Virus record (IMG/VR): IMGVR_UViG_3300022555_000016
Length of the DNA: 20,000 bases
From: an uncultured virus (IMG/VR IMGVR_UViG_3300022555_000016)
Taxonomy: Duplodnaviria > Heunggongvirae > Uroviricota > Caudoviricetes
Reading direction: 5' to 3' (one strand)
A program made the translations under genes and the position numbers. Shown piece by piece: positions 5,499 to 20,000 of the stretch. The notes beneath the pieces were generated by a model that did not search any database, was not told the DNA's origin, and saw only the letters and a list, made by a program, of their open reading frames with translations. Numbering within the stretch: position 1 is the stretch's first letter; each line of letters begins with the position of its first letter.

Positions 5499-7232
5499 TC
5501 AACCGACGTAGTGATTGCCTCTAATTAACCGTGAGTCCTTCTGAATCTGAATCTTGAAAGGTGTTGTTAGTACCTTCTTGACCCAGTCTTGGTCAACCGT
5601 AGGCAATCCCATACGAGTCTTGAACTTTCTAAGGACGTTTACTGAGGATTGAACGTCAGAGTGAACATGAATCCCTTTAGCGGTGATATACAAGCCTCGT
5701 CGGACCCGTGTACCACTGTAATGAGGACTGGGAGCACCCTTAACATAGCATGGAGGGAGATAGTCACCGTCCATAGCAGACCCTTTACTAGTGTGTGATT
5801 CATTCTGTAAGTGGACTGTAATACCTACTGCTACGCACTTGTAGGTTAACATTTCCACGAACCGATTGAAGGGGAGCCTAGTAAAGTTCTTCATACCCTT
5901 AGCAAACTGTTTCCAGTCTAGATTCCTACCGATAACTAGGATTACGACACCCTTCTCCACGAGCAGCTTCACTAGCGTGCTGGAAACGTTGTGGAGGTAG
6001 TGGTCCAGTCTATTTCTAAGCTTATTGTAAGCGGCTTGAATCCTCTTTGAAGAGTTCTGTGGGACTTTAGAAGTTAGAATCTGACTCAACTCCTGATCGT
6101 ACTCAGGAGGCTCGGGGTACAATGAATCGTGAGTAGCAAAAGCTTGCTGAACCATCAAACCTAGCATAAGGTAGTTAAACGGGTTGGACTCAGGGTCTTT
6201 CAACTCCCTAAGACGTTTCCTCTTCAACTCTAGCTCTTCTTTAGCTTTAGTACGTTCGTCTATTAACTGACGTTCCCTAGCCGGTTTAGACCAGTAGAGG
6301 TCCCGTTTAAGCTCTTCTATCTGGTAGTAGGACCAAAGTAATAGAGACTTCAGAATCCAACCGTTAAAGGCTATAGGCTTTGGATTACCTTCGATTACCC
6401 CAGCGGCTGTAACGTTTAACCCTAGGTCAAAGCTTGCTATGGCTTGTAGTTCTTCCTGCTTAGCAGTCCAGTTACCTGTAATCTCTTCGTTGTAGACTAC
6501 TTCTACGTTGTAACCACCTACTATTGGTATGTAGCGTACTTCCGTGATTCCAACGTCTCTTAGGACAGGTTTACCCCTGGAATCCTTCTTTATAGCTTGT
6601 TTACCGTTAGCGTCGGTAACAACTTGAGGTTGCATGTGGAGGGTGAAGGGTATTTCCTGTTTAAACTCAGGATTCTTAGGGCAAAGGGTGATGATTCCCT
6701 TGGGAGCAATAGACTCTGATAACCTAGCGCCTTTGACCTGTTTCCTATCAGAATCAATGATCTGACCACCGGACATGGTCTGGTAGGTAAATTTAACAGG
6801 CTTACGACTGTCAGTCCTACGGATGTACTTATCACCCTTGAATCCAGGCGGTTGAGGGCAAGCCTTGTACTTCTTAGGAAACTGTTTCTGGAGTTCCTTG
6901 CTTTTAGTCCACTCCCAGAAGTCAAACCAAGCTGCTTCGAAGGACTTCCAGTCGTCATGGAGCATCTTAACGGTAGCTTGAGCTACTTTAGCAGGTAACC
7001 GTTGGTACTCTAGAGTCGGTTTTAACAGCTTAACTAGCTCTGGTAGACTAGGAATCCTACGCCGTTGGAAGCCTGGTTTCTTATAGTTGTCTTGGTTGTA
7101 ATTCCAGATTTCTAGTAGAAGGTGGAGACCTACATGATAGAGTTTGGAGGACAAAAAGCAAGTACGATCAATACTCCTATCCCAAGGGTGTTTTGGACCT
7201 ACAAACTGTTTTTGAGTCCTAGTTTCTAACAT
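5499..7232 (-). CDS. tnpB: TnpB-like RNA-guided endonuclease (IS200/IS605 OrfB), rearranged-RuvC type, enlarged
   Basis: RuvC-I IASFDLGLN; LDHYLHNVS bridge region; LVIGRNLDWKQ (canonical Glu replaced by Gly); LTYKC...GITVHLQNESHTSK (relocated Glu); RVRRGLY; RuvC-III HSDVQSSVNVLRK; no CxxC zinc finger. Confidence 0.88.
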   Translation of the reverse strand: MLETRTQKQFVGPKHPWDRSIDRTCFLSSKLYHVGLHLLLEIWNYNQDNYKKPGFQRRRIPSLPELVKLLKPTLEYQRLPAKVAQATVKMLHDDWKSFEAAWFDFWEWTKSKELQKQFPKKYKACPQPPGFKGDKYIRRTDSRKPVKFTYQTMSGGQIIDSDRKQVKGARLSESIAPKGIITLCPKNPEFKQEIPFTLHMQPQVVTDANGKQAIKKDSRGKPVLRDVGITEVRYIPIVGGYNVEVVYNEEITGNWTAKQEELQAIASFDLGLNVTAAGVIEGNPKPIAFNGWILKSLLLWSYYQIEELKRDLYWSKPARERQLIDERTKAKEELELKRKRLRELKDPESNPFNYLMLGLMVQQAFATHDSLYPEPPEYDQELSQILTSKVPQNSSKRIQAAYNKLRNRLDHYLHNVSSTLVKLLVEKGVVILVIGRNLDWKQFAKGMKNFTRLPFNRFVEMLTYKCVAVGITVHLQNESHTSKGSAMDGDYLPPCYVKGAPSPHYSGTRVRRGLYITAKGIHVHSDVQSSVNVLRKFKTRMGLPTVDQDWVKKVLTTPFKIQIQKDSRLIRGNHYVG

Positions 7233-12245: not shown

Positions 12246-13259
12246 CTAAGTTTGTTCTCTAAGTTTTGCAGCGTTTAAGTAGTCAATGGCACGTCTGATT
12301 AGTTTAGTCTTGTCTCTAAACTCACCTAACGCTACATTGCATGTGCGACAAGCGTAGCCTCTAATTAAACCTGTAGTGTGGCAATGTTCAATTTCAAGGT
12401 AAGGAACGTCATTACCACAGATAGCGCAAGTGCAGTAAGTAGATGATACTTTATCAAGTAACTTTCTTAAGTACCTACCATGAGCTGCGTTGTTTTTACC
12501 TTTAAAACCATTCAAAACCGTATGGATCATTAGCCTAACCCTAATGGAAAACTTAACGTTCTCTATTACAATTACAGCAATTTTAGACCTTGAAAAGTTA
12601 AGCAGCTTACTAATAGTTTTAGTTGACTTGCCAGATTCCCATAAACCTATTACTTTTTTAGCAAAGTCTATTTTAATAGCTCTACGTGTAGCACTTCCCT
12701 TATCAATACTCTCCTTAAGAGGAGATGCTCTTTTTAAGATATTATTAGGAATACTGTTTTTAGTAAGAGCCTTGCTAACAGTATTCACAGAAATATTAAA
12801 TTTTGCTCCAACTTCAGCCTTGGTAACATTAGGTTCAGAAAGATAAGCTTTACAGATTTGTTTTTCCAGCTTACCTGTCAACTTCCTAGAATTTGGCCTA
12901 CCTGCGGCGTTAACTAGTCTAATAACTATACCGTTTTCTTCTAAGACTTTCCTTATGGTATGCTTGCTTACCCCGTAGTCTTTAGCAAGTTTAACCAAGT
13001 TTTGTAATTTAATATAGTCTTTTGCTATGGCGGCTTCCTCCGCCTCAGAAAAAACATGCCTACCATTAACCATAGGACGTGTAAACTCTTTTTTACGATC
13101 TTTCCTAAACTGCCTACGCTTAACTACCCTTACGCCGTGCTTTGCCCGCACTTTGCGTACAATATAACCACTAACATTACAAATCTTACCTGCTTCTTTT
13201 AAGTTAAAGCAAGAATTATAGGCGTTTATTATAAGAAGCTCATCTTCTTTGGACAACAT
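12246..13259 (-). CDS. Endonuclease VII-domain (His-Me finger) protein with four N-terminal HTH-like repeats
   Basis: C-terminal CAICG...IEHCHTTGLIRGYACRTCNVALG...AIDYL; repeats such as LVKLAKDYGVSKHTIRKVL and AEVGAKFNISVNTVSKAL. Confidence 0.88.
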   Translation of the reverse strand: MLSKEDELLIINAYNSCFNLKEAGKICNVSGYIVRKVRAKHGVRVVKRRQFRKDRKKEFTRPMVNGRHVFSEAEEAAIAKDYIKLQNLVKLAKDYGVSKHTIRKVLEENGIVIRLVNAAGRPNSRKLTGKLEKQICKAYLSEPNVTKAEVGAKFNISVNTVSKALTKNSIPNNILKRASPLKESIDKGSATRRAIKIDFAKKVIGLWESGKSTKTISKLLNFSRSKIAVIVIENVKFSIRVRLMIHTVLNGFKGKNNAAHGRYLRKLLDKVSSTYCTCAICGNDVPYLEIEHCHTTGLIRGYACRTCNVALGEFRDKTKLIRRAIDYLNAAKLREQT

Positions 13260-13287: not shown

Positions 13288-13989
13288 CTAAAGCGGATAC
13301 TTTAAGTAAAGTATCGCCGATTCCATATAGTCAGTATTGTCTTTAAGCAGCCCTAATCCCGAGTTGCAACAGTAACATAAGTAACCTCTAATAGCACCAC
13401 TTACGTGGCAATGATCTATAGTTAAAGATTCTACTTCTCCACAAATGTCACACGCTCTAGGTTTAATGTCTAGCATACGTCTTAAGTACTCCTTACTAGA
13501 TTCATAACTGGTACCTAATAAATTTGTTGTAACGTAAGTTATTAGGCTTTCAATCTTCTTAGAGAAGTGCCTATTTTCACAAATGTAGTCTGCTACGTTA
13601 TATATAGGCTTCCTAATGTTAGCAGAAATAGTGTCAATATTAACACCTTCATCCCACATAGTTAGTATACTATTAAACGTATCTTTATGCTTACGGACTC
13701 TTTCTTTTAAAGCTTCCTCAGAATTAGCGTGTTTTATAGATTCTTCATGTATAGCTTTACGTTTATTACGTTGAAATTCCGTATTAGTAGGTATTCCAAA
13801 GGAATTTAAAATTCTACTAACTGTAGTACAACCAACATTATATTTAATGGCTAAAGAACTAATGTTAGCGGAGGGAGTTTCATACTCACGACATAAGGCT
13901 ACTTTTTGCTCATAAGATAAAAAGGTTTTAGACTTACTTTTAATAATTGAAGTGTCTAAACAAAAATCTATATCATGTTTCTTAAGCAC
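13288..13989 (-). CDS. Endonuclease VII-domain protein with HTH repeats (main part; N-terminus lies in the upstream frame)
   Basis: CDICG...IDHCHVSGAIRGYLCYCCNSGLGLLKDN...AILYL; HTH ISSLAIKYNVGCTTVSRIL. Confidence 0.88.
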   Translation of the reverse strand: MLKKHDIDFCLDTSIIKSKSKTFLSYEQKVALCREYETPSANISSLAIKYNVGCTTVSRILNSFGIPTNTEFQRNKRKAIHEESIKHANSEEALKERVRKHKDTFNSILTMWDEGVNIDTISANIRKPIYNVADYICENRHFSKKIESLITYVTTNLLGTSYESSKEYLRRMLDIKPRACDICGEVESLTIDHCHVSGAIRGYLCYCCNSGLGLLKDNTDYMESAILYLKYPL

Positions 13990-14115: not shown

Positions 14116-14529
14116 TTACAGTTTGCGTTGAAGTTCAATGAACGCTAGAATCTCTTTAACGGAGGAGGAACCTACTGTAGCAATGAAACAATTCTTGGTC
14201 CACATGCAAGGGATTCGACTCTTTAGGTCAGGAAACTTGGACCGTAGAATCCTAGCTGAACCATCTTTGATCTTATCAACTATAGACATAATAGTTACGG
14301 TTGGGGGTATGTCTACTACTACGTGAACATGGTCGTCTGTAATCTCCACTCCCAATAACACGTAACCAAACTCTACTTGTTTGTCTCTAATGAATCCCTT
14401 TAATACTGTAGAAATACCGTCAACCAAGACATGACGACGATACTTGGGGCAGAACACTATGTGGTACTGACAGGAGAAAACCTTGTTGTTTTCCTTACGG
14501 TAGGCTTTCTTGGGAGGCTTTACCAACAT
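14116..14529 (-). CDS. tnpA: IS200/IS605 Y1 (HUH) transposase TnpA homolog, catalytic Tyr replaced by Phe
   Basis: YHIVFCPKYRR, DHVH (HUH), IPP, KDGSARILR and MWTKNCFIATVG. C-terminal helix reads ILAFIELQ where the family has YIxxQ. Confidence 0.9.
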   Translation of the reverse strand: MLVKPPKKAYRKENNKVFSCQYHIVFCPKYRRHVLVDGISTVLKGFIRDKQVEFGYVLLGVEITDDHVHVVVDIPPTVTIMSIVDKIKDGSARILRSKFPDLKSRIPCMWTKNCFIATVGSSSVKEILAFIELQRKL

Positions 14530-15240: not shown

Positions 15241-18200
15241 TTAACCACATTTAGAGTAACCGCAGTCTAAACAGGATTGGCACCCTTCTTTACGTATTAA
15301 ACTAGGCTGTTGGCACTTTGGGCAAATTTCACCCAGCACCTTAGGCTTAACACTAGAATCAACCTGTTCAATGTTAACTAAACGGTCCTTACTGGTGTCG
15401 TGATAGTTAATACTTTGTAAGTGCTGATGTATGATTATACCGATGTACGCAGTTAAGGATGGGATATATTTACCCTTAACCCATTGACCGCCTTGAGGAG
15501 AGTGCGTCTGCAAAAGCTCTTCAATTACGAAACTAGCATCTGTTCCGTCATCAGCGGAACGACGGAAGATTCCAGATATCATCCGGGTCAAGGCTACGAT
15601 TAACTCTAGGCTCTCTACGGCTTTAGTATTAACAAAAAGCTCAAAGGGAAGAACCTTACCGTCTTCCGAAATTATATTGTTAATAGTTATGTAGTAAGCG
15701 CGTGAAGAGTCTACACCCCACTTTATCTTATAAGACTTACCTTCCAGAACATCAGGCCGCTCAGGCTTACCGTTCTTGCTCATTTTCTTAGTAACCTTTT
15801 CTTCTTGAGGCAAAGCTTTTAGCTCGTCAGCAGTTACTGCTTCAGAAGTGACACTTAATATACTACCACGATTAGGATTGGGGCGATAGGTAGTAACTCC
15901 CTTACACCCCGTATCGTAAGCGGTCATGTATACAGACTTAAACTCATCAAAAGTTATAGACTCAGGACAGTTAACAGTTTTACTAACAGCAGCGTCAATA
16001 TACGTCTGACAAGCAGCTTGCATAGCTAAATGTTCATCAACAGTAAGTTCTAAGGCTGTAACCATACTATTAGGCAAACTGCTTAAAGAAGCAGTTACTG
16101 GGTCAAGCTTGTTTACTGAACAATATAGCTGCCATCCGCGATCACAAACAGCAAACTCCTTAAATGACTCGTCTAACTGGCGAACTTTCCTATAGTACCT
16201 GAAAGAAAAAGTTGGCTCCAACCCTGAAGATACATTACCGTAGTACAGACTAGTTGTACCATTAGGAGCACAGGTCTGTAGCACGGCATTACGGATACCA
16301 GTCTTCCTTATTAACTTTTGAGTATCCTTAGGTAAGTCTTTAAAGAAATGATTATCACACCACCCTTTACTGTACAAAGGAAAGGCTCCACGCTCTACAG
16401 CTAATTCAGCGGACGCGTGATAAACAGTATCACGCCAAGTTTTTAAAGTGGATTTAGTCCAATCTAAAGATTCCGAACTTCCGTAGCGTAAACCTAACGC
16501 TTGTAAAGCACTAGCTAAACCTAAAAACCCTGCGCCAATCCTACGCTTACTATCAGACTCTTCTTCTTGCATAAGTAGAGGCCAATTAGTTATGTCTAAT
16601 ACGTTATCTAGAAACCTCACTCCTAAAGATGCGACCTTCTTCATACGATCTAAATCGAAACTGGCATTTTTAGTAAAAGGTTCACGAACAAAAGACAGTA
16701 GATTTATAGCACCTAAGTCACACGTTCCGTAGGGAGGCAACGGTTCCTCGCCGCAATTTCCGGTTGTAATTCCTACAGCCAGTGCAACTTTGTGGTGTGG
16801 TTTTACTGTACAGCAGTAGACTTCCTTATCGATACCATCTGGTTCAATGGATACCACTTTACTGTACTTAGGCTTAGGAAGCCTATTGCTTACAGTTTTA
16901 TTTGAAAAGTTTTTAAGCCTACTAAACTCAACTTGCTTAGCCAAGTTAATTGAGTCAATTTGACTAAGACCTAACCGCCAAGACTCTTGACAATAATAAT
17001 TACCGCCTGGCATGTCCTTATAACAAGCTGCTTTCATAAGACCTAACTTAGAATTCACACCTAAAGACTTAAGAAGTGTTTGAATATCAATTAAAAAACC
17101 TTTTTCAACGGAGCTTAATTGATAACCAAACCCATTGGTTTTTGAATCTTTAACTGTACCATCTGCGTCAAAAAGACCTGCTAAAAATTCACACTTAGTA
17201 GCATAGTCCCAAGAGAAGCAATACCTAGGCAAACGACTCTTATACTTGGACGCCCAGTTATCTAAACGACCGTCATTATTCCGAACAGTTAGTCCAGACA
17301 TTTGCCATTTAGTAGGCATACTTGGCGATACCGAAAACCCTAATTCAACCTCTGCGTTAGTGTTAACTGCACCAACTTCAAGTTCCGAAGCAGACTCAAT
17401 TAACCTAGAAGCACAACAATGCTTAGGTTCATATAGGAACAGATTTAGGCGTGACTTGCCTGAGTCTCGCGTAGAAGTATGCCCATCGCCTACCAAGAAA
17501 CCCTTAAGATAAGCTGCTGGTTCCCAACGCGTACCATTATACTCTACAGTAGCCAACTCTAACCTATGACCGACTTTCAAATCTTTAGCTTTAAGCTTAG
17601 TACCGTTATCCAAATAAAACGAATGCTCTGTTGTAACTCTCAACGAAGAACCATCATAGAGAGTTACTTTCAACATAGGTTGATTGTTGCCAGTAACCCT
17701 AAAGTTGTCAACGTCAACCCAGGAAGTACCATCCCATATGGTTACTAACTTTCCTACCAACTTTTTAATAGGCTTAGCCCCGTTATTGGTGATAATTAAA
17801 GTATCCGCTGAAAAACAGGGATTAGTTGCAGAGATGACCTCACCACTATACTTTAAGTTGTTTCTGGAGTTTATCTCATCAATAAAAATTACCCCAGGCT
17901 CTGCCATAGAGTAAGTGCTAGTCATAATAGCATCCCAAAGTTCAACCGCAGGCAAAACTTTGTATACATACCAAGGCTTACCGTTTTTTTCTTTAACAGA
18001 AACTACGGTAGTCAGATCAACAGGAGGAATACCAAAACCTAATTCCCAAACACCGCCGGATTTTACAGAAGTCATCAATTTACTAGTGACTAAAACTGAC
18101 ATATTAAAATTTAGCAAAATTCCTGACTTCTGCTTGGCGGTTATAAATTCAAAAATGTCAGGGTGATCATCTGCCATAACTGCCATCATAGCACCTCTCC

Positions 18201-18678
18201 GACTCGACCCAGAGAGAATAGCTTGGCACATAGAATCAAACATTTTCATAAAAGAAATTGGACCACTAGAAGTGGAGCCTGTAGCTTTAACTATAGCACC
18301 TTTAGGACGTAAAGTAGAAAAATCAAAACCAATACCTCCACCTTGTTGCATAGTTAACGCCGCTTCTTTTAACTTTTCCATGATGTCTGCCATAGAATCA
18401 TCTATAGTACCAGACACAAAGCAGTTTAAAGAAGTAGTCTTGTGATCAGTACCAGCACTAGCATGAATCCTACCAGCAGGATTCCATTCGCGGTTAATCA
18501 TTGCTTCTAGCACGAGAGGCATAAACTCATCACGCCTAGTATCCTTTTCATAAACAGCGGAAACGACCCTTTTAAAAGAGTCTTCAATTGACTGTTCATT
18601 ACCTTCCGCCCACCGATACTTCTCGCGCCAAATATAGTCAACAATTGGATCGTAAGGGACAAAATTTGATACTGTCAT
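15241..18678 (-). CDS. nrdJ: Class II (adenosylcobalamin-dependent) ribonucleotide reductase with intein, C-terminal TSCPD-like domain and Zn ribbon
   Basis: PAGRI, NCFV, QQGGGIGFDFSTLRPKG, RRGAMM, NP|CGEEPL, CDLGAINL, APNGTTS, SSGLEP, KGVTTYR; terminal CPKC...EGCQSCLDCGYSKCG. Confidence 0.96.
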   Translation of the reverse strand: MTVSNFVPYDPIVDYIWREKYRWAEGNEQSIEDSFKRVVSAVYEKDTRRDEFMPLVLEAMINREWNPAGRIHASAGTDHKTTSLNCFVSGTIDDSMADIMEKLKEAALTMQQGGGIGFDFSTLRPKGAIVKATGSTSSGPISFMKMFDSMCQAILSGSSRRGAMMAVMADDHPDIFEFITAKQKSGILLNFNMSVLVTSKLMTSVKSGGVWELGFGIPPVDLTTVVSVKEKNGKPWYVYKVLPAVELWDAIMTSTYSMAEPGVIFIDEINSRNNLKYSGEVISATNPCFSADTLIITNNGAKPIKKLVGKLVTIWDGTSWVDVDNFRVTGNNQPMLKVTLYDGSSLRVTTEHSFYLDNGTKLKAKDLKVGHRLELATVEYNGTRWEPAAYLKGFLVGDGHTSTRDSGKSRLNLFLYEPKHCCASRLIESASELEVGAVNTNAEVELGFSVSPSMPTKWQMSGLTVRNNDGRLDNWASKYKSRLPRYCFSWDYATKCEFLAGLFDADGTVKDSKTNGFGYQLSSVEKGFLIDIQTLLKSLGVNSKLGLMKAACYKDMPGGNYYCQESWRLGLSQIDSINLAKQVEFSRLKNFSNKTVSNRLPKPKYSKVVSIEPDGIDKEVYCCTVKPHHKVALAVGITTGNCGEEPLPPYGTCDLGAINLLSFVREPFTKNASFDLDRMKKVASLGVRFLDNVLDITNWPLLMQEEESDSKRRIGAGFLGLASALQALGLRYGSSESLDWTKSTLKTWRDTVYHASAELAVERGAFPLYSKGWCDNHFFKDLPKDTQKLIRKTGIRNAVLQTCAPNGTTSLYYGNVSSGLEPTFSFRYYRKVRQLDESFKEFAVCDRGWQLYCSVNKLDPVTASLSSLPNSMVTALELTVDEHLAMQAACQTYIDAAVSKTVNCPESITFDEFKSVYMTAYDTGCKGVTTYRPNPNRGSILSVTSEAVTADELKALPQEEKVTKKMSKNGKPERPDVLEGKSYKIKWGVDSSRAYYITINNIISEDGKVLPFELFVNTKAVESLELIVALTRMISGIFRRSADDGTDASFVIEELLQTHSPQGGQWVKGKYIPSLTAYIGIIIHQHLQSINYHDTSKDRLVNIEQVDSSVKPKVLGEICPKCQQPSLIRKEGCQSCLDCGYSKCG
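16756..17817 (-). mobile_element. Intein (354 aa) with LAGLIDADG homing endonuclease in nrdJ
   Basis: Begins CFSADT after ATNP; block B VTTEHSF; LAGLIDADG motifs LKGFLVGDG and FLAGLFDADG; block F VYCCTV; ends ITTGN before +1 Cys (CGEEP). Confidence 0.95.
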
Positions 18679-18730
18679 AACGCCAAGCCCTCTTCTTTAA
18701 ACTGTTGAACCTGAAACTAAAAACACAAAA

Positions 18731-18859
18731 TCAAGGTAGCAAACACGACAAGGCTACCAAAACTACAAACAACCACCCTAGCCACAATGACCAATTACGC
18801 CTAACAAACGTCGGATTAACTGAGCTTAACAGGAAGTAACCTTTGTACGAACAGAACAT
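18731..18859 (-). CDS. Putative small membrane peptide (42 aa, not in the ORF track)
   Basis: AAGGTG SD, then MFCSYKGYFLLSSVNPTFVRRNWSLWLGWLFVVLVALSCLLP* with a C-terminal hydrophobic segment. Confidence 0.4.
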   Translation of the reverse strand: MFCSYKGYFLLSSVNPTFVRRNWSLWLGWLFVVLVALSCLLP

Positions 18860-18873
18860 TGCTCACCTTTTTC

Positions 18874-19098
18874 TTACGGGGCTAGGGTAGAACCGTCAAA
18901 CAGAACATCAACTTTCTCAACAAACTCAGACAACGGACGCGACCACTCACTACCGTTAGCACCAATATAATTAACGGTATAGGGGAAATCAATAGATTCA
19001 GGTACTGATGTGTTAGTTACCTTAAGAATGGTGTAGACCGTTCGTTTTCTAGAATGAACTACAACTGTTCCCGGCTTAACTTGTTCCTTGGTTAGCAC
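18874..19098 (-). CDS. Small phage protein, DUF1653-like
   Basis: GGAG SD with GTG start; VVVHSRKRTVYTI...VNY...WSRPLSEFVEK resembles the DUF1653 HxKGxxY...VVY...WxRPxxxF pattern. Confidence 0.65.
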   Translation of the reverse strand: MLTKEQVKPGTVVVHSRKRTVYTILKVTNTSVPESIDFPYTVNYIGANGSEWSRPLSEFVEKVDVLFDGSTLAP

Positions 19099-19127
19099 TA
19101 TCTATCTCCATCAGCATTATAAATAAT

Positions 19128-19166
19128 CACTGGAAACCTCCACCTTTTAAGGTGAGGAGGAAAGCG
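19128..19166 (-). mobile_element. Right-end hairpin of the IscB-bearing IS200/IS605 element
   Basis: Minus strand TTCCTCCTCACCTTAAAAGGTGGAGGTTTCC directly after the iscB stop, resembling the usual iscB 3' end pattern (TTCCTCCCC..CCTAAAGG..GGGGTTTCC). Confidence 0.75.
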
Positions 19167-19174
19167 ATTCCTTT

Positions 19175-19828
19175 CTATTTTAAGGGTTGAATCAAAGTGG
19201 TGCTTCTAGCTTGTAGTCTAACACACCCCTTCTTAACATTAACACTGTTAGACACTACAGTACCGTCCAGCTTAACTACAGAGAAACTTCCGGTAGACCG
19301 TTTACCTTTAATGAATCCGGTGCCTTTAGGAGTCTGAATCAGGTCAAACGTCCTAAAGCCGAACAGCTTACCTCTAGGGTAAATCTTCTCAGACCCTAGA
19401 CCCCAACGTTGTTGGTAGTCACCGTGAGCTACGTGTTTCTTGTAGTACACTGGAGTGTCGGCTAGCACTGAAGTAATCTTGATACCACAAGCTATAGCTA
19501 TAGCGTCGTTAGCGTGGGTCTTAGGTAGACCTAACTTCTCCCGTTTAAGTTTAGTCTGGTAACCAAAGGTCTCAACAAACTCCCAATCAGATTTCTTTAA
19601 TTGACTAGAAATGATTCCCATTTCCGTTGGATGTTTGGTAGCAGACCTTTTAGTCGGTAGAGTTATTTTACCGTCATGAATCTCTTTGTGGCGGTCCTTA
19701 CAGACTGCTATCAGGTTAGCAGGGTCGTTGGTACCACCTTCAGACCTAGGAATCTTGTGGTGAACATGAAGTACCTTAGAGTGCTTACCTGTCTTTACCT
19801 GACACTTGTAATCGTCCCTAGCTAGAAT
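19175..19828 (-). pseudogene. iscB: C-terminal half of IscB (HNH, RuvC-III, C-terminal domain), interrupted at the start of the HNH
   Basis: The frame extends upstream of the track's ATG: ILARDDYKCQ...LHVHHKIPRSEGGTNDPANLIAVCKDRHKEIH (HNH), ETFGYQTK, KTHANDAIAIA (RuvC-III), LFGFRTFDL...GFIKGKRSTGSF. Confidence 0.88.
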
Positions 19829-19965
19829 GTGAACAACTCCGGGCTTAAAGCCCTGGAGCTTCCCCCTCGCGGGTGGGAAGTTACTCTTTCGACGAGGACT
19901 GCTGACCCTATCGGGTAGTCTTACACCCTCTCCAGAGTCGTGAATTACCAGTATACCTCCGGTAT
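19829..19965 (-). ncRNA. Right end/omegaRNA scaffold of a TnpB-type IS200/IS605 element inserted in iscB
   Basis: Minus strand ACCGGAGG..CTGGTAATTCACGACTCTGGAGAGGGTGTAAGAC...GCAGTCCTCG..GAAAG, stems ACCC-GATA-GGGT and CCC-GCGA-GGG, terminal hairpin CTCCAGGGC-TTTAA-GCCCGGAG (19858-19837), end motif TTCAC (19833-19829). This follows the known TnpB right-end RNA layout. Confidence 0.8.
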
Positions 19966-20000
19966 TTCTCAGAGACTCAGATTCTTTTTGACATAGAACC

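What the first reader, a model, noticed from the sequence alone, without database searches (positions are those of the whole stretch)
19175..20000. Reading frame open through a TnpB omegaRNA into IscB HNH/RuvC-III: possible natural TnpB-IscB chimeric nuclease
Seen: the minus frame starting at 19999 has no stop until 19175. It reads VLCQKESESLRNTGGILVIHDSGEGVRLPDRVSSPRRKSNFPPARGKLQGFKPGVVH|ILARDDYKCQ...HNH...THAND. Known: TnpB C-terminal tails commonly overlap the omegaRNA and read like 'NTAGxxGIxACGEGVR', which NTGGILVIHDSGEGVR resembles. Inference: this is the tnpB frame, so an upstream tnpB would be translated as a fusion with the IscB HNH and C-terminal domains, giving a Cas12-ancestor scaffold with a Cas9-ancestor HNH. 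The upstream gene is outside the window, and about 57 stop-free codons could be chance.
Basis: partly seen in the sequence, partly recalled or inferred. Interest (0 to 1): 0.85.

Follow-up and report, generated by a model that had tools for sequence, protein, structure and literature searches.

The report
TnpB transposon end abutting IscB fragment
The open frame is real, but it is the tail of one mobile element (TnpB type) running by accident into the broken remains of another (IscB type), not an evolved hybrid nuclease.

Summary
The minus frame 19999..19175 is open for 274 codons and reads as quoted.

- 19828-20000(-) is the 3' end of a TnpB-type IS200/IS605 element, meaning the tnpB tail overlapping the omegaRNA scaffold. 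A covariance model built only from tnpB-linked 3' ends elsewhere hits 19854-19967 at 42.4 bits, E 2.9e-9; the next hit in the window scores 10.2 bits.
- 19827-19175 is the C-terminal part of an IscB: HNH, RuvC-III and the C-terminal domain (306 bits).

The join is a transposon end, not a domain linker:
- A sister copy (L039) is 121/125 identical up to window base 19828 and unrelated after it.
- That stretch has about 5-fold the read depth of the phage around it.
- The sister copy and 7 relatives stop inside the element. The window copy reads through only because of a 1-base deletion.
- Three protein searches found no fused TnpB-HNH protein.

The window ends at the contig end, so the upstream tnpB cannot be seen.

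Verdict: an accidental frame fusion at nested selfish elements in a freshwater phage contig. A functional chimera is about 4% likely.

The parts
19828..20000 (-). 3' end of a TnpB-type IS200/IS605 element: tnpB C-terminal tail coding overlapping the omegaRNA scaffold. The right end (RE) is at 19828; the element continues beyond the contig end.
   Evidence: CM R1, built from 7 tnpB 3' ends without the window, hits 19854-19967(-) at 42.4 bits, E 2.9e-9; next best in the window is 10.2 bits. L039 is 121/125 identical to 19828-19951 and unrelated after 19828. nhmmer places it at tnpB 3' ends in L047/L048, L041/L025/L040 and L045. Logan contig depth is about 5-fold that of the unique flank. GC is 0.51-0.52 against about 0.40-0.46 nearby.
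19947..19963 (-). omegaRNA hairpin 1 (ACCGG...CTGGT), upstream of the conserved core
   Evidence: It sits at the same place as the hairpin whose 5 pairs all show compensatory changes among 7 relatives. It is aligned as paired by the CM.
19929..19943 (-). Conserved single-stranded core TCACGACTCTGGAGA, which codes the tail motif H-D-S-G-E
   Evidence: The same 15-mer pattern lies at the 3' end of tnpB in L041, L042-L045, L047-L049, L081 and L084. TGGAGA is invariant in A4.
19837..19858 (-). Terminal omegaRNA hairpin (CTCCAGGGC TTTAA GCCCGGAG). Its loop holds the TAA (19847-19845) that ends the tnpB frame in the sister copy L039.
   Evidence: A homologous terminal hairpin with covarying stem, followed by G-T-A/T-G/T-T-C/T-C-A-C, is present in 7 relatives. 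L039 translation stops at this TAA.
19862..19866 (-). G-run with a 1-base deletion relative to L039. It shifts the tnpB frame past the TAA and over the right end.
   Evidence: Pairwise alignment A5; translations.
19175..19827 (-). 5'-truncated iscB: about the last 217 codons (HNH, RuvC-III, C-terminal/TAM-interacting region) with its stop. The first 16-20 bases after 19828 would serve as the omegaRNA guide of this TnpB copy (inferred).
   Evidence: The family HMM of 110 IscB sequences matches HMM positions 175-402 of 411 at 306 bits. There are 174 homologs, the best 50-59% identical and 395-420 aa long; 117 of the 120 listed carry RRXRR (PF14239) plus HNH. The fragment deviates at 4 of 71 conserved columns.
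19673..19789 (-). HNH nuclease domain (ORF residues 71-109)
   Evidence: Pfam PF01844, E 2.2e-8, 34.6 bits against a cut-off of 21.4. C103R is a change at a Cys that at least 90% of the family keep.
19502..19522 (-). RuvC-III motif K-T-H-A-N-D-A (ORF residues 160-166)
   Evidence: K160, H162, D165 and A166 are invariant in alignment A2 with 12 full-length IscB proteins.
19116..19182 (-). 3' terminal hairpin region of the IscB (ISC) element, present in about 3 copies in the metagenomes
   Evidence: The Logan contig 19130-19182 has depth 71/188/43/11 against 27/48-52/13-16/3.5-4 for the unique flank. Another copy diverges below 19115. It is 65% identical over 69 nt to the iscB 3' end in L015, and by eye is homologous to the hairpin inside the iscB tail of L004.
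14116..14529 (-). IS200-type Y1 transposase (TnpA), a possible mobiliser in trans of both elements
   Evidence: Pfam PF01797, E 1.2e-29. A link to these elements is inferred, not shown.

Best explanation
The finding is a junction between two selfish elements of the IS200/IS605 superfamily in a freshwater phage contig. Read on the minus strand, the window begins inside the last part of a TnpB-type element. The tnpB tail is encoded over the omegaRNA scaffold, and the element's right end lies at 19828. Directly after it comes a 5'-truncated iscB gene (19827-19175) followed by the IscB element's own terminal hairpin (19182-19116).

In relatives the tnpB frame stops 5-50 bases before the right end. 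In this copy a 1-base deletion in a G-run shifts the frame past the element's TAA. The frame then leaves the element and, by chance of phase, continues through 217 iscB codons to the iscB stop.

Shown: the identity of both parts, the position of the right end, the multicopy nature of the element, and the frameshift.

Inferred:
- The TnpB element inserted into, or recombined next to, an iscB copy.
- The omegaRNA of this copy carries the first ~16 iscB bases as its guide, so it would direct TnpB to uninterrupted copies of that iscB site.
- Any fusion protein made is a by-product.

Whether tnpB upstream is intact is unknown, because the contig ends there.
For: 1. TnpB end. blastn and nhmmer place 19828-20000 only at the 3' ends of tnpB genes. 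L025:3673-4839 is a TnpB by Pfam: OrfB_IS605 3.7e-33, TNB 1.4e-20, HTH_OrfB 2.5e-20. Its tail GEIHAFGEDVRL is in the same frame as the window's LVIHDSGEGVRL.

2. Structured RNA. In the alignment of 7 tnpB 3' ends, 14 of 20 pairs show compensatory changes. The CM built from it hits the window once at 42.4 bits, E 2.9e-9. It also hits the tnpB 3' end in 14 of 17 further TnpB loci searched (24 of the 48 TnpB loci were given to that call).

3. Right end. L039 is identical at 121 of 125 positions up to ...GTTGTTCACA and unrelated beyond it. IscB similarity starts at that base: residues 58 onward align with family V-L-x-R-D. The 57 upstream residues alone score -2.8 bits against the IscB HMM.

4. 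Repeat. Contig depth for 19874-19962 is 131/287/109 against 27/52/16 for 19289-19903 in runs X1/X2/X4. L039-like variants branch at 19864/19865. Both this contig and L039's contig break inside the element.

5. Frameshift. L039 stops at the TAA in the terminal hairpin loop. The window lacks one base of the G-run. Seven distinct relatives stop 5-50 nt before the right end.

6. No fused family. A search for longer proteins with the 274-aa query found 3 hits of 488-500 aa, all RRXRR+HNH. The 57-aa tail gave nothing among longer proteins. Against 1.84e9 representatives it gave one spurious repeat protein.

7. Context. Co-location of the two element types recurs. R1 gives plus-strand hits within 2.5 kb of iscB in 3 of 35 viral IscB loci. 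One of these, L004, has a full iscB directly followed by a tnpB 3' fragment. The window also holds an IS200 Y1 transposase.

8. Literature, passages read. The omegaRNA overlaps the tnpB 3' end and the right end, with a 16-nt guide at its 3' end (PMC10097598). ISC and TnpB elements share termini and Y1 transposases, and are found inserted in other repeats (PMC4810608).
Against: - The upstream part of the element and the 5' half of iscB were never seen. Insertion into an intact iscB, as opposed to some other rearrangement, is therefore inferred.
- No empty site and no TAM were identified.
- The IscB fragment is not visibly decayed: 4 of 71 conserved columns deviate against a family median of 2, and 11 of 110 members are as deviant. 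It has no internal stops. This fits a recent event but does not exclude selection.
- The IscB HMM alignment formally begins at residue 45 and BLASTP at residue 31, upstream of the junction. With two distant phage IscBs, 'GEGVRLPD' lines up with 'QELVRFDM'. I take these as chance, because the same bases occur in L039 with no iscB behind them.
- Rfam has no family matching the RNA.
- The fold z-score of 19820-20000 alone is only -1.8.
- A contig joining 19828 directly to 19182, at the phage's own depth, is unexplained.
Confidence: 0.85

Rival explanations
1. One reading: an evolved, functional TnpB-IscB chimeric nuclease, in which a TnpB body carries an IscB HNH, RuvC-III and C-terminal module.
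For: The open frame is the tnpB frame and continues in phase through 217 iscB codons. The HNH H-N-H residues and the RuvC-III H/D are kept, and only 4 of 71 conserved columns deviate. The TnpB C-terminal domain is disordered and dispensable, so an extension might be tolerated (PMC10097598, passages read).
Against: The junction is the transposon's right end to the base. Read-through needs a copy-specific 1-base deletion, since the sister copy and 7 relatives stop inside the element. No fused relatives were found in three searches. The IscB part lacks RuvC-I, the bridge helix and RuvC-II, so RuvC-III is orphaned. C103R falls at a conserved HNH Cys. The coding sequence just after the junction would double as the guide. 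Two full-text searches listed no natural TnpB-HNH fusion among the 12 and 10 papers shown (listings and abstracts only).
Confidence: 0.04
2. The TnpB-type end is a non-autonomous remnant (omegaRNA and right end only, or a decayed tnpB), so no TnpB-containing fusion protein is made at all. The anatomy is otherwise the same as in the best explanation.
For: No predicted protein over 100 aa in the large collection carries this tail. The 74-kb record holding L039 has no TNB domain. Depth falls from 131 (19874-19962) to 77 (19933 to 196 bases beyond 20000) in X1, so copies differ upstream. Truncated tnpB 3' fragments exist, as in L004.
Against: The frame stays open for the 11 codons upstream of the NTGG motif, and these resemble the tail of L046. 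The element continues at least 196 bases beyond the window in about 3 copies. Short, repeat-broken contigs would also explain the missing proteins.
Confidence: 0.4
3. An ordinary full-length iscB merely cut by the window edge, with the first 57 codons being a divergent RuvC-II region. This was my first hypothesis.
For: Relatives are 395-460 aa RRXRR+HNH proteins whose match starts about 130-190 residues in. 'GEGVRLPD' lines up with 'QELVRFDM' of two phage IscBs.
Against: The 57 residues score -2.8 bits against the IscB HMM, although the family motif there is strongly conserved. The same DNA is a tnpB-type omegaRNA and occurs in L039 without any iscB behind it.
Confidence: 0.01
4. Assembly chimera: the last ~170 bases were joined wrongly at a contig end.
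For: The junction lies 173 bases from a contig end and inside a repeat.
Against: Single Logan contigs of 615 bases span 19289-19903 with no differences in X1, X2 and X4, which come from two studies. One of these runs may be the source sample.
Confidence: 0.02

Closest known systems
IS200/IS605-family TnpB elements with omegaRNA/reRNA (for example ISDra2)
   Same: A structured RNA overlaps the 3' end of tnpB and the right end, with the guide taken from the flank. The tail protein sequence is poorly conserved and set by the RNA (PMC10097598, passages read). The window matches a CM of such ends.
   Different: Only the last 173 bases are visible. This copy has lost the in-element stop through a 1-base deletion, so the frame leaves the element. 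It also has an extra hairpin (19859-19880) compared with relatives.
ISC elements encoding IscB with the HEARO omegaRNA (Rfam RF02033)
   Same: The HNH, RuvC-III and C-terminal region are 50-59% identical to full IscB proteins. Relatives carry HEARO directly upstream in 13 of 20 loci scanned. A terminal hairpin follows the gene.
   Different: The N-terminal ~186 codons (PLMP, RuvC-I, bridge helix, RuvC-II) and HEARO are absent from the window. It is a fragment, not a working IscB.
Nested or adjacent ISC and TnpB elements sharing termini and Y1 transposases (Kapitonov, Makarova and Koonin 2016, PMC4810608, passages read)
   Same: The two element types co-occur, and a Y1 TnpA is present in the same 20 kb. 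L004 and L025 show iscB next to a tnpB or a tnpB fragment.
   Different: Here both are in the same orientation and the two frames are fused. The paper describes shared termini with tnpB antisense to iscB.
Natural HNH fusions to RNA-guided effectors (Cas9, in which HNH is inserted in RuvC; Cas8-HNH, PMC11480323, abstract only)
   Same: An HNH domain would be attached to an RNA-guided scaffold if the fusion were made.
   Different: Those are conserved families with dedicated linkers. This is a single copy whose junction is a transposon end.

Membership tests
TnpB element (IS200/IS605) | omegaRNA scaffold overlapping the 3' end of tnpB and ending at the right end | tested here: met
   CM R1 scores 42.4 bits, E 2.9e-9, at 19854-19967(-). 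The model's structure has 14 of 20 covarying pairs.
TnpB element (IS200/IS605) | Defined right end shared between copies, with unrelated flanks | tested here: met
   L039 is 121/125 identical up to 19828 and unrelated after it.
TnpB element (IS200/IS605) | Multicopy | tested here: met
   Depth is about 5-fold that of the unique flank in 3 runs, with variant copies branching. These are metagenome depths, not copy numbers per genome.
TnpB element (IS200/IS605) | tnpB ORF with RuvC D-E-D and a TNB zinc finger | not testable with these tools
   It lies beyond the contig end. No protein with this tail was found.
TnpB element (IS200/IS605) | TAM next to the left end, and an empty site | not tested
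   The left end is not available.
IscB (ISC element) | RRXRR region (RuvC-I, bridge helix, RuvC-II) | tested here: not met
   There is no PF14239 hit. The HMM match starts at position 175 of 411. tblastn with 6 N-terminal halves finds nothing in the window.
IscB (ISC element) | HNH domain inserted before RuvC-III | tested here: met
   PF01844, E 2.2e-8. K-T-H-A-N-D-A aligns with invariant family columns.
IscB (ISC element) | HEARO-type omegaRNA upstream of the ORF | tested here: not met
   There is no HEARO in the window at the gathering or E<=10 thresholds. Relatives have it in 13 of 20 loci.
Evolved TnpB-HNH fusion family (hypothetical) | The same architecture recurs in other genomes | tested here: not met
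   These searches are word-seeded or work on cluster representatives, so absence is weak evidence.
Evolved TnpB-HNH fusion family (hypothetical) | The junction is a protein linker, not a mobile-element boundary | tested here: not met
   The junction equals the right end. Read-through comes from a 1-base deletion.

The most novel reading that the evidence does not exclude
An intact tnpB lies just beyond the contig end, and this copy is translated as a protein of roughly 600 aa: TnpB with an IscB HNH, RuvC-III and TAM-interacting module on its dispensable C-terminal tail. That protein keeps RNA-guided targeting and gains a second, HNH-type cut. It would be a snapshot of how a Cas12-lineage scaffold could acquire a Cas9-lineage nuclease domain through nested transposition plus a frameshift.
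Probability: 0.04. Interest if true: 0.8.

Novelty: new member of a known kind. Interest (0 to 1): 0.25.

Why it matters
- It is a worked example of how an open frame across a transposon end can mimic a domain fusion. The tnpB tail is dictated by the omegaRNA, and one lost base lets it run into whatever lies beyond.
- One RNA-guided selfish element sits against the remains of another in a phage contig that also carries a Y1 transposase, a second TnpB-like gene, an intein and homing-endonuclease-like genes.
- If the inferred guide is used, this TnpB copy would be aimed at intact iscB copies. That would be a small, testable case of conflict between OMEGA elements.
- For nuclease discovery it is of low value unless the upstream gene proves intact.

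Tried and rejected
- **Plain IscB cut by the window edge.** This was my first reading. I rejected it.
- **Introns.** An Rfam scan of 18600-20000 at E<=10 gave only four far-sub-threshold hits, none of them an intron or HEARO. The whole window at gathering threshold gave none.
- **Close DNA relatives.** megablast against phages found nothing. An exact 45-mer and a 24-mer in viral contigs found nothing. Two pattern scans of genome contigs found nothing. A single-protein search for related loci in viral contigs found nothing.
- **The 57-aa tail as protein.** tblastn against phages and plasmids gave only chance hits with E>=2. phmmer against 1.84e9 representatives gave one hit, a 1601-aa repeat protein that BLASTP shows to be spurious. 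The longer-protein search gave nothing. These short-query searches could not have detected a 16-residue motif.
- **Getting the upstream sequence.** No genome is held, the metagenome record is not searchable, and L039's record has no TNB domain. Logan contigs run 196 bases beyond 20000, but their letters are not shown.
- **The 19182-to-19828 joint.** It skips 645 bases, has depth 26/51/16, and only 28 letters on its shorter side. I could not tell whether it is a second TnpB copy next to another ISC end, a deletion derivative, or a repeat artefact. I first made something of 645 being divisible by 3, then dropped it because the L039-type copies stop inside the element.
- **An error corrected.** I first read L039 as also running through its right end. 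Translation showed that it stops.
- **Earlier findings.** Two look-ups returned nothing.
- **Not used.** Structure prediction and complex prediction were not run, because the TnpB part is missing.

Full report
**Observation.** On the minus strand the frame that starts at 19999 is open to the TAG at 19177-19175. No ATG, GTG or TTG lies in frame before residue 127, so any product containing the HNH domain must start upstream of the window (read). For the first 57 codons alone, 938 of 20000 shuffles are stop-free, so openness by itself is weak evidence. Window base 20000 is the last base of a 129,496-base metagenome contig (L003). No genome is held and the record cannot be searched.

**The IscB part.** Pfam finds only HNH, at residues 71-109 (E 2.2e-8).
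- The large protein search gave 174 relatives. The best are 50-59% identical and 395-420 aa long. Of the 120 listed, 117 carry RRXRR (PF14239) plus HNH, and some are named RNA-guided endonuclease IscB.
- Annotated phage relatives (Ralstonia phage Heva, a Microcoleus phage) are 458 and 425 aa long with RRXRR+HNH.
- In 13 of 20 viral loci with relatives, Rfam HEARO, the IscB omegaRNA, sits directly upstream of the gene.
- A profile of 110 full-length relatives matches the window ORF at 306 bits, but only from profile position 175 of 411. The first 57 residues alone score -2.8 bits.
- The window holds no RRXRR region and no HEARO anywhere.

So 19827-19175 is the last ~217 codons of an iscB: HNH, the RuvC-III motif KTHANDA, and the C-terminal domain. 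It is not visibly decayed. It deviates at 4 of 71 columns that are at least 90% conserved, against a family median of 2, and 11 of 110 members are at least as deviant. One of the four changes is C103R, at a conserved HNH cysteine.

**The upstream 173 bases.** I first took these codons for a divergent RuvC-II region, because 'GEGVRLPD' lines up with 'QELVRFDM' of two phage IscBs. That reading failed.
- blastn of 19828-20000 against the fetched loci hit the 3' end of an ORF in L025. That ORF is a TnpB by Pfam: OrfB_IS605 3.7e-33, TNB 1.4e-20, HTH_OrfB 2.5e-20. Its tail ...GEIHAFGEDVRL... is in the same frame as the window's ...LVIHDSGEGVRL....
- From 48 viral TnpB loci, nhmmer again placed the window stretch at tnpB 3' ends.
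- The DNA shows a common plan: a hairpin, AAAT, the core TCACGCCTNTGGAGA, a variable hairpin, TCGTTGAAAGAGGAAGC, a terminal hairpin, GTAGTTCAC, then flank.
- In an alignment of seven such ends, made without the window and without L039, RNAalifold finds 20 pairs, 14 of them with compensatory changes.
- The covariance model built from that alignment hits the window once, at 19854-19967(-), with 42.4 bits and E 2.9e-9. The next hit in the 20 kb scores 10.2 bits.
- The model also finds the tnpB 3' end in 14 of 17 further TnpB loci (24 of the 48 loci were searched).

This agrees with the published picture that the omegaRNA overlaps the tnpB 3' end and the right end and carries a 16-nt guide from the flank (PMC10097598, passages read).

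**The junction.** A pattern scan found a sister copy at the very start of another viral contig, L039.
- L039 is identical to the window at 121 of 125 positions up to ...GGAGTTGTTCACA, which is window base 19828. After that it has nothing in common.
- IscB similarity begins at that base: I58-L59-A60-R61-D62 against the family's V-L-x-R-D.
- Logan contigs from four runs in three studies give depth 27/52/16/3.5 for the unique stretch 19289-19903, but 131/287/109 for 19874-19962. L039-type variants branch at 19864/19865.
- Single 615-base contigs bridge the junction without a difference in X1, X2 and X4. The join is therefore not an artefact of this assembly, although one of those runs may be the source sample.

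So 19828 is the right end of a multicopy element, and the iscB fragment is its flank.

**Why the frame is open.**
- In seven distinct relatives the tnpB frame stops 5-50 bases before the right end.
- In L039 it stops at a TAA in the loop of the terminal hairpin (...NFPSVRREAPGL*).
- The window copy lacks one base of a G-run (19862-19866) relative to L039. This shifts the frame, reads that TAA as ...F-K-P..., and carries the frame over the right end.
- That the flank is in phase and in the same orientation is a matter of chance, roughly 1 in 6.
- I had first believed that L039 also read through. One search corrected this.

**Is it a fusion family?** The searches say no.
- The 274-aa query against longer proteins found three hits of 488-500 aa, all RRXRR+HNH.
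- The 57-aa tail found nothing among longer proteins. Against 1.84 billion representatives it found only a spurious repeat protein.
- These searches are weak for short or rare sequences.
- Two full-text searches listed no natural TnpB-HNH fusion among the 12 and 10 papers shown (listings and abstracts only).
- The IscB piece lacks RuvC-I, the bridge helix and RuvC-II, so its RuvC-III is orphaned.
- In favour of a possible activity: the TnpB C-terminal domain is disordered and dispensable (PMC10097598), so an extension might be tolerated, and the HNH catalytic residues are present.

**Context.** All large ORFs of the window lie on the minus strand. They include the following:
- a ribonucleotide reductase with a LAGLIDADG intein;
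- two endonuclease VII-domain proteins;
- a BRO-N protein;
- an IS200-type Y1 transposase (14116-14529);
- a 577-aa protein with OrfB_IS605 and TNB domains (5499-7232).

This looks like a phage region dense in selfish elements. The stretch after the iscB stop (19182-19116) is a hairpin region present about three times in the metagenomes. It is similar to the 3' end of iscB in relatives, so I take it as the terminal hairpin of the ISC element.

Co-location of the two element types recurs. The model gives plus-strand hits within 2.5 kb of iscB in 3 of 35 viral IscB loci. In L004 the order is capsid gene, HEARO, a full iscB, then a tnpB 3' fragment with its omegaRNA. Kapitonov et al. reported that ISC and TnpB elements share termini, target sites and Y1 transposases, and that they are found inserted in other repeats (PMC4810608, passages read).

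**Mechanism, with what is shown and what is inferred.**
- Shown: both identities, the right end, the repeat nature of the element, and the frameshift.
- Inferred: a TnpB element transposed into, or recombined next to, an iscB copy.
- Inferred: its omegaRNA now ends in about 16 bases of iscB and would guide TnpB to uninterrupted copies of that site, as in restorative or non-restorative homing (review PMC13565253, passages read).
- Inferred: if tnpB upstream is intact, ribosomes would make a TnpB with a 217-residue IscB appendage as a by-product.
- Unknown: whether tnpB is intact (I put this at about even odds), where the 5' half of iscB is, and what the TAM is.

**Unexplained.** A contig joins 19828 directly to 19182 at the phage's own depth in three runs, with only 28 letters on its shorter side. 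It may be a second element copy next to another ISC end, or a deletion derivative.

**Verdict.** It is most likely an accidental frame fusion at the boundary of nested IS200/IS605-family elements. The components and their behaviour are known; the particular arrangement is a curiosity. The functional-chimera reading stays at about 4%.

Noticed in passing
window 5499-7232 (-): A 577-aa ORF with OrfB_IS605 (residues 383-439) and a TNB zinc-finger domain (455-533), preceded by about 380 residues with no Pfam hit. It is an unusually long TnpB-like protein. The omegaRNA model R1 does not hit near it.
   Followed up: partly
window 14116-14529 (-): A stand-alone IS200-type Y1 transposase (PF01797, E 1.2e-29). 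It could mobilise the TnpB and IscB elements in trans.
   Followed up: no
window 15241-18678 (-): A ribonucleotide reductase of 1145 aa, interrupted by an intein with a LAGLIDADG domain (Ribonuc_red_lgC 2.5e-107, LAGLIDADG_3 4.6e-13, Intein_splicing 5.2e-6).
   Followed up: no
window 12246-13259 and 13288-13989 (-): Two adjacent ORFs with C-terminal endonuclease VII domains and N-terminal HTH-like regions, resembling free-standing homing endonucleases.
   Followed up: no
window 19182/19828, seen in Logan contigs: In runs X1, X2 and X4 a contig joins 19828 directly to 19182, skipping the 645-base iscB fragment. Its depth (26/51/16) is equal to the phage's own, and its shorter side is only 28 letters. 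Its origin is unresolved.
   Followed up: partly
L004 1702-3416: A T4-like capsid gene (Gp23, 4.2e-58) is followed by HEARO, a full 415-aa iscB, and then immediately a tnpB 3' fragment (TNB positions 38-60 of 60) with a TnpB-type omegaRNA end (R1 56.6 bits). This is the reverse order of the window's arrangement.
   Followed up: partly
L004 1702-1738, L005 1734-1819, L011 1696-1750, L015 1691-1780, L018 1736-1805 (all minus strand): The TnpB omegaRNA model gives weak antisense hits (E 0.0007-0.01). In L004, L005 and L011 they begin at the same coordinate where HEARO starts (HEARO coordinates). This fits the published sharing of termini between ISC and TnpB elements in opposite orientation (PMC4810608).
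   Followed up: no
window 19859-19880 (-): The window and L039 carry an extra hairpin (CTTCCC...GGGAAG) between the conserved TCGTCGAAAGAG segment and the terminal hairpin. The seven relatives lack it. The two copies differ there by paired-looking substitutions and by the 1-base indel.
   Followed up: partly
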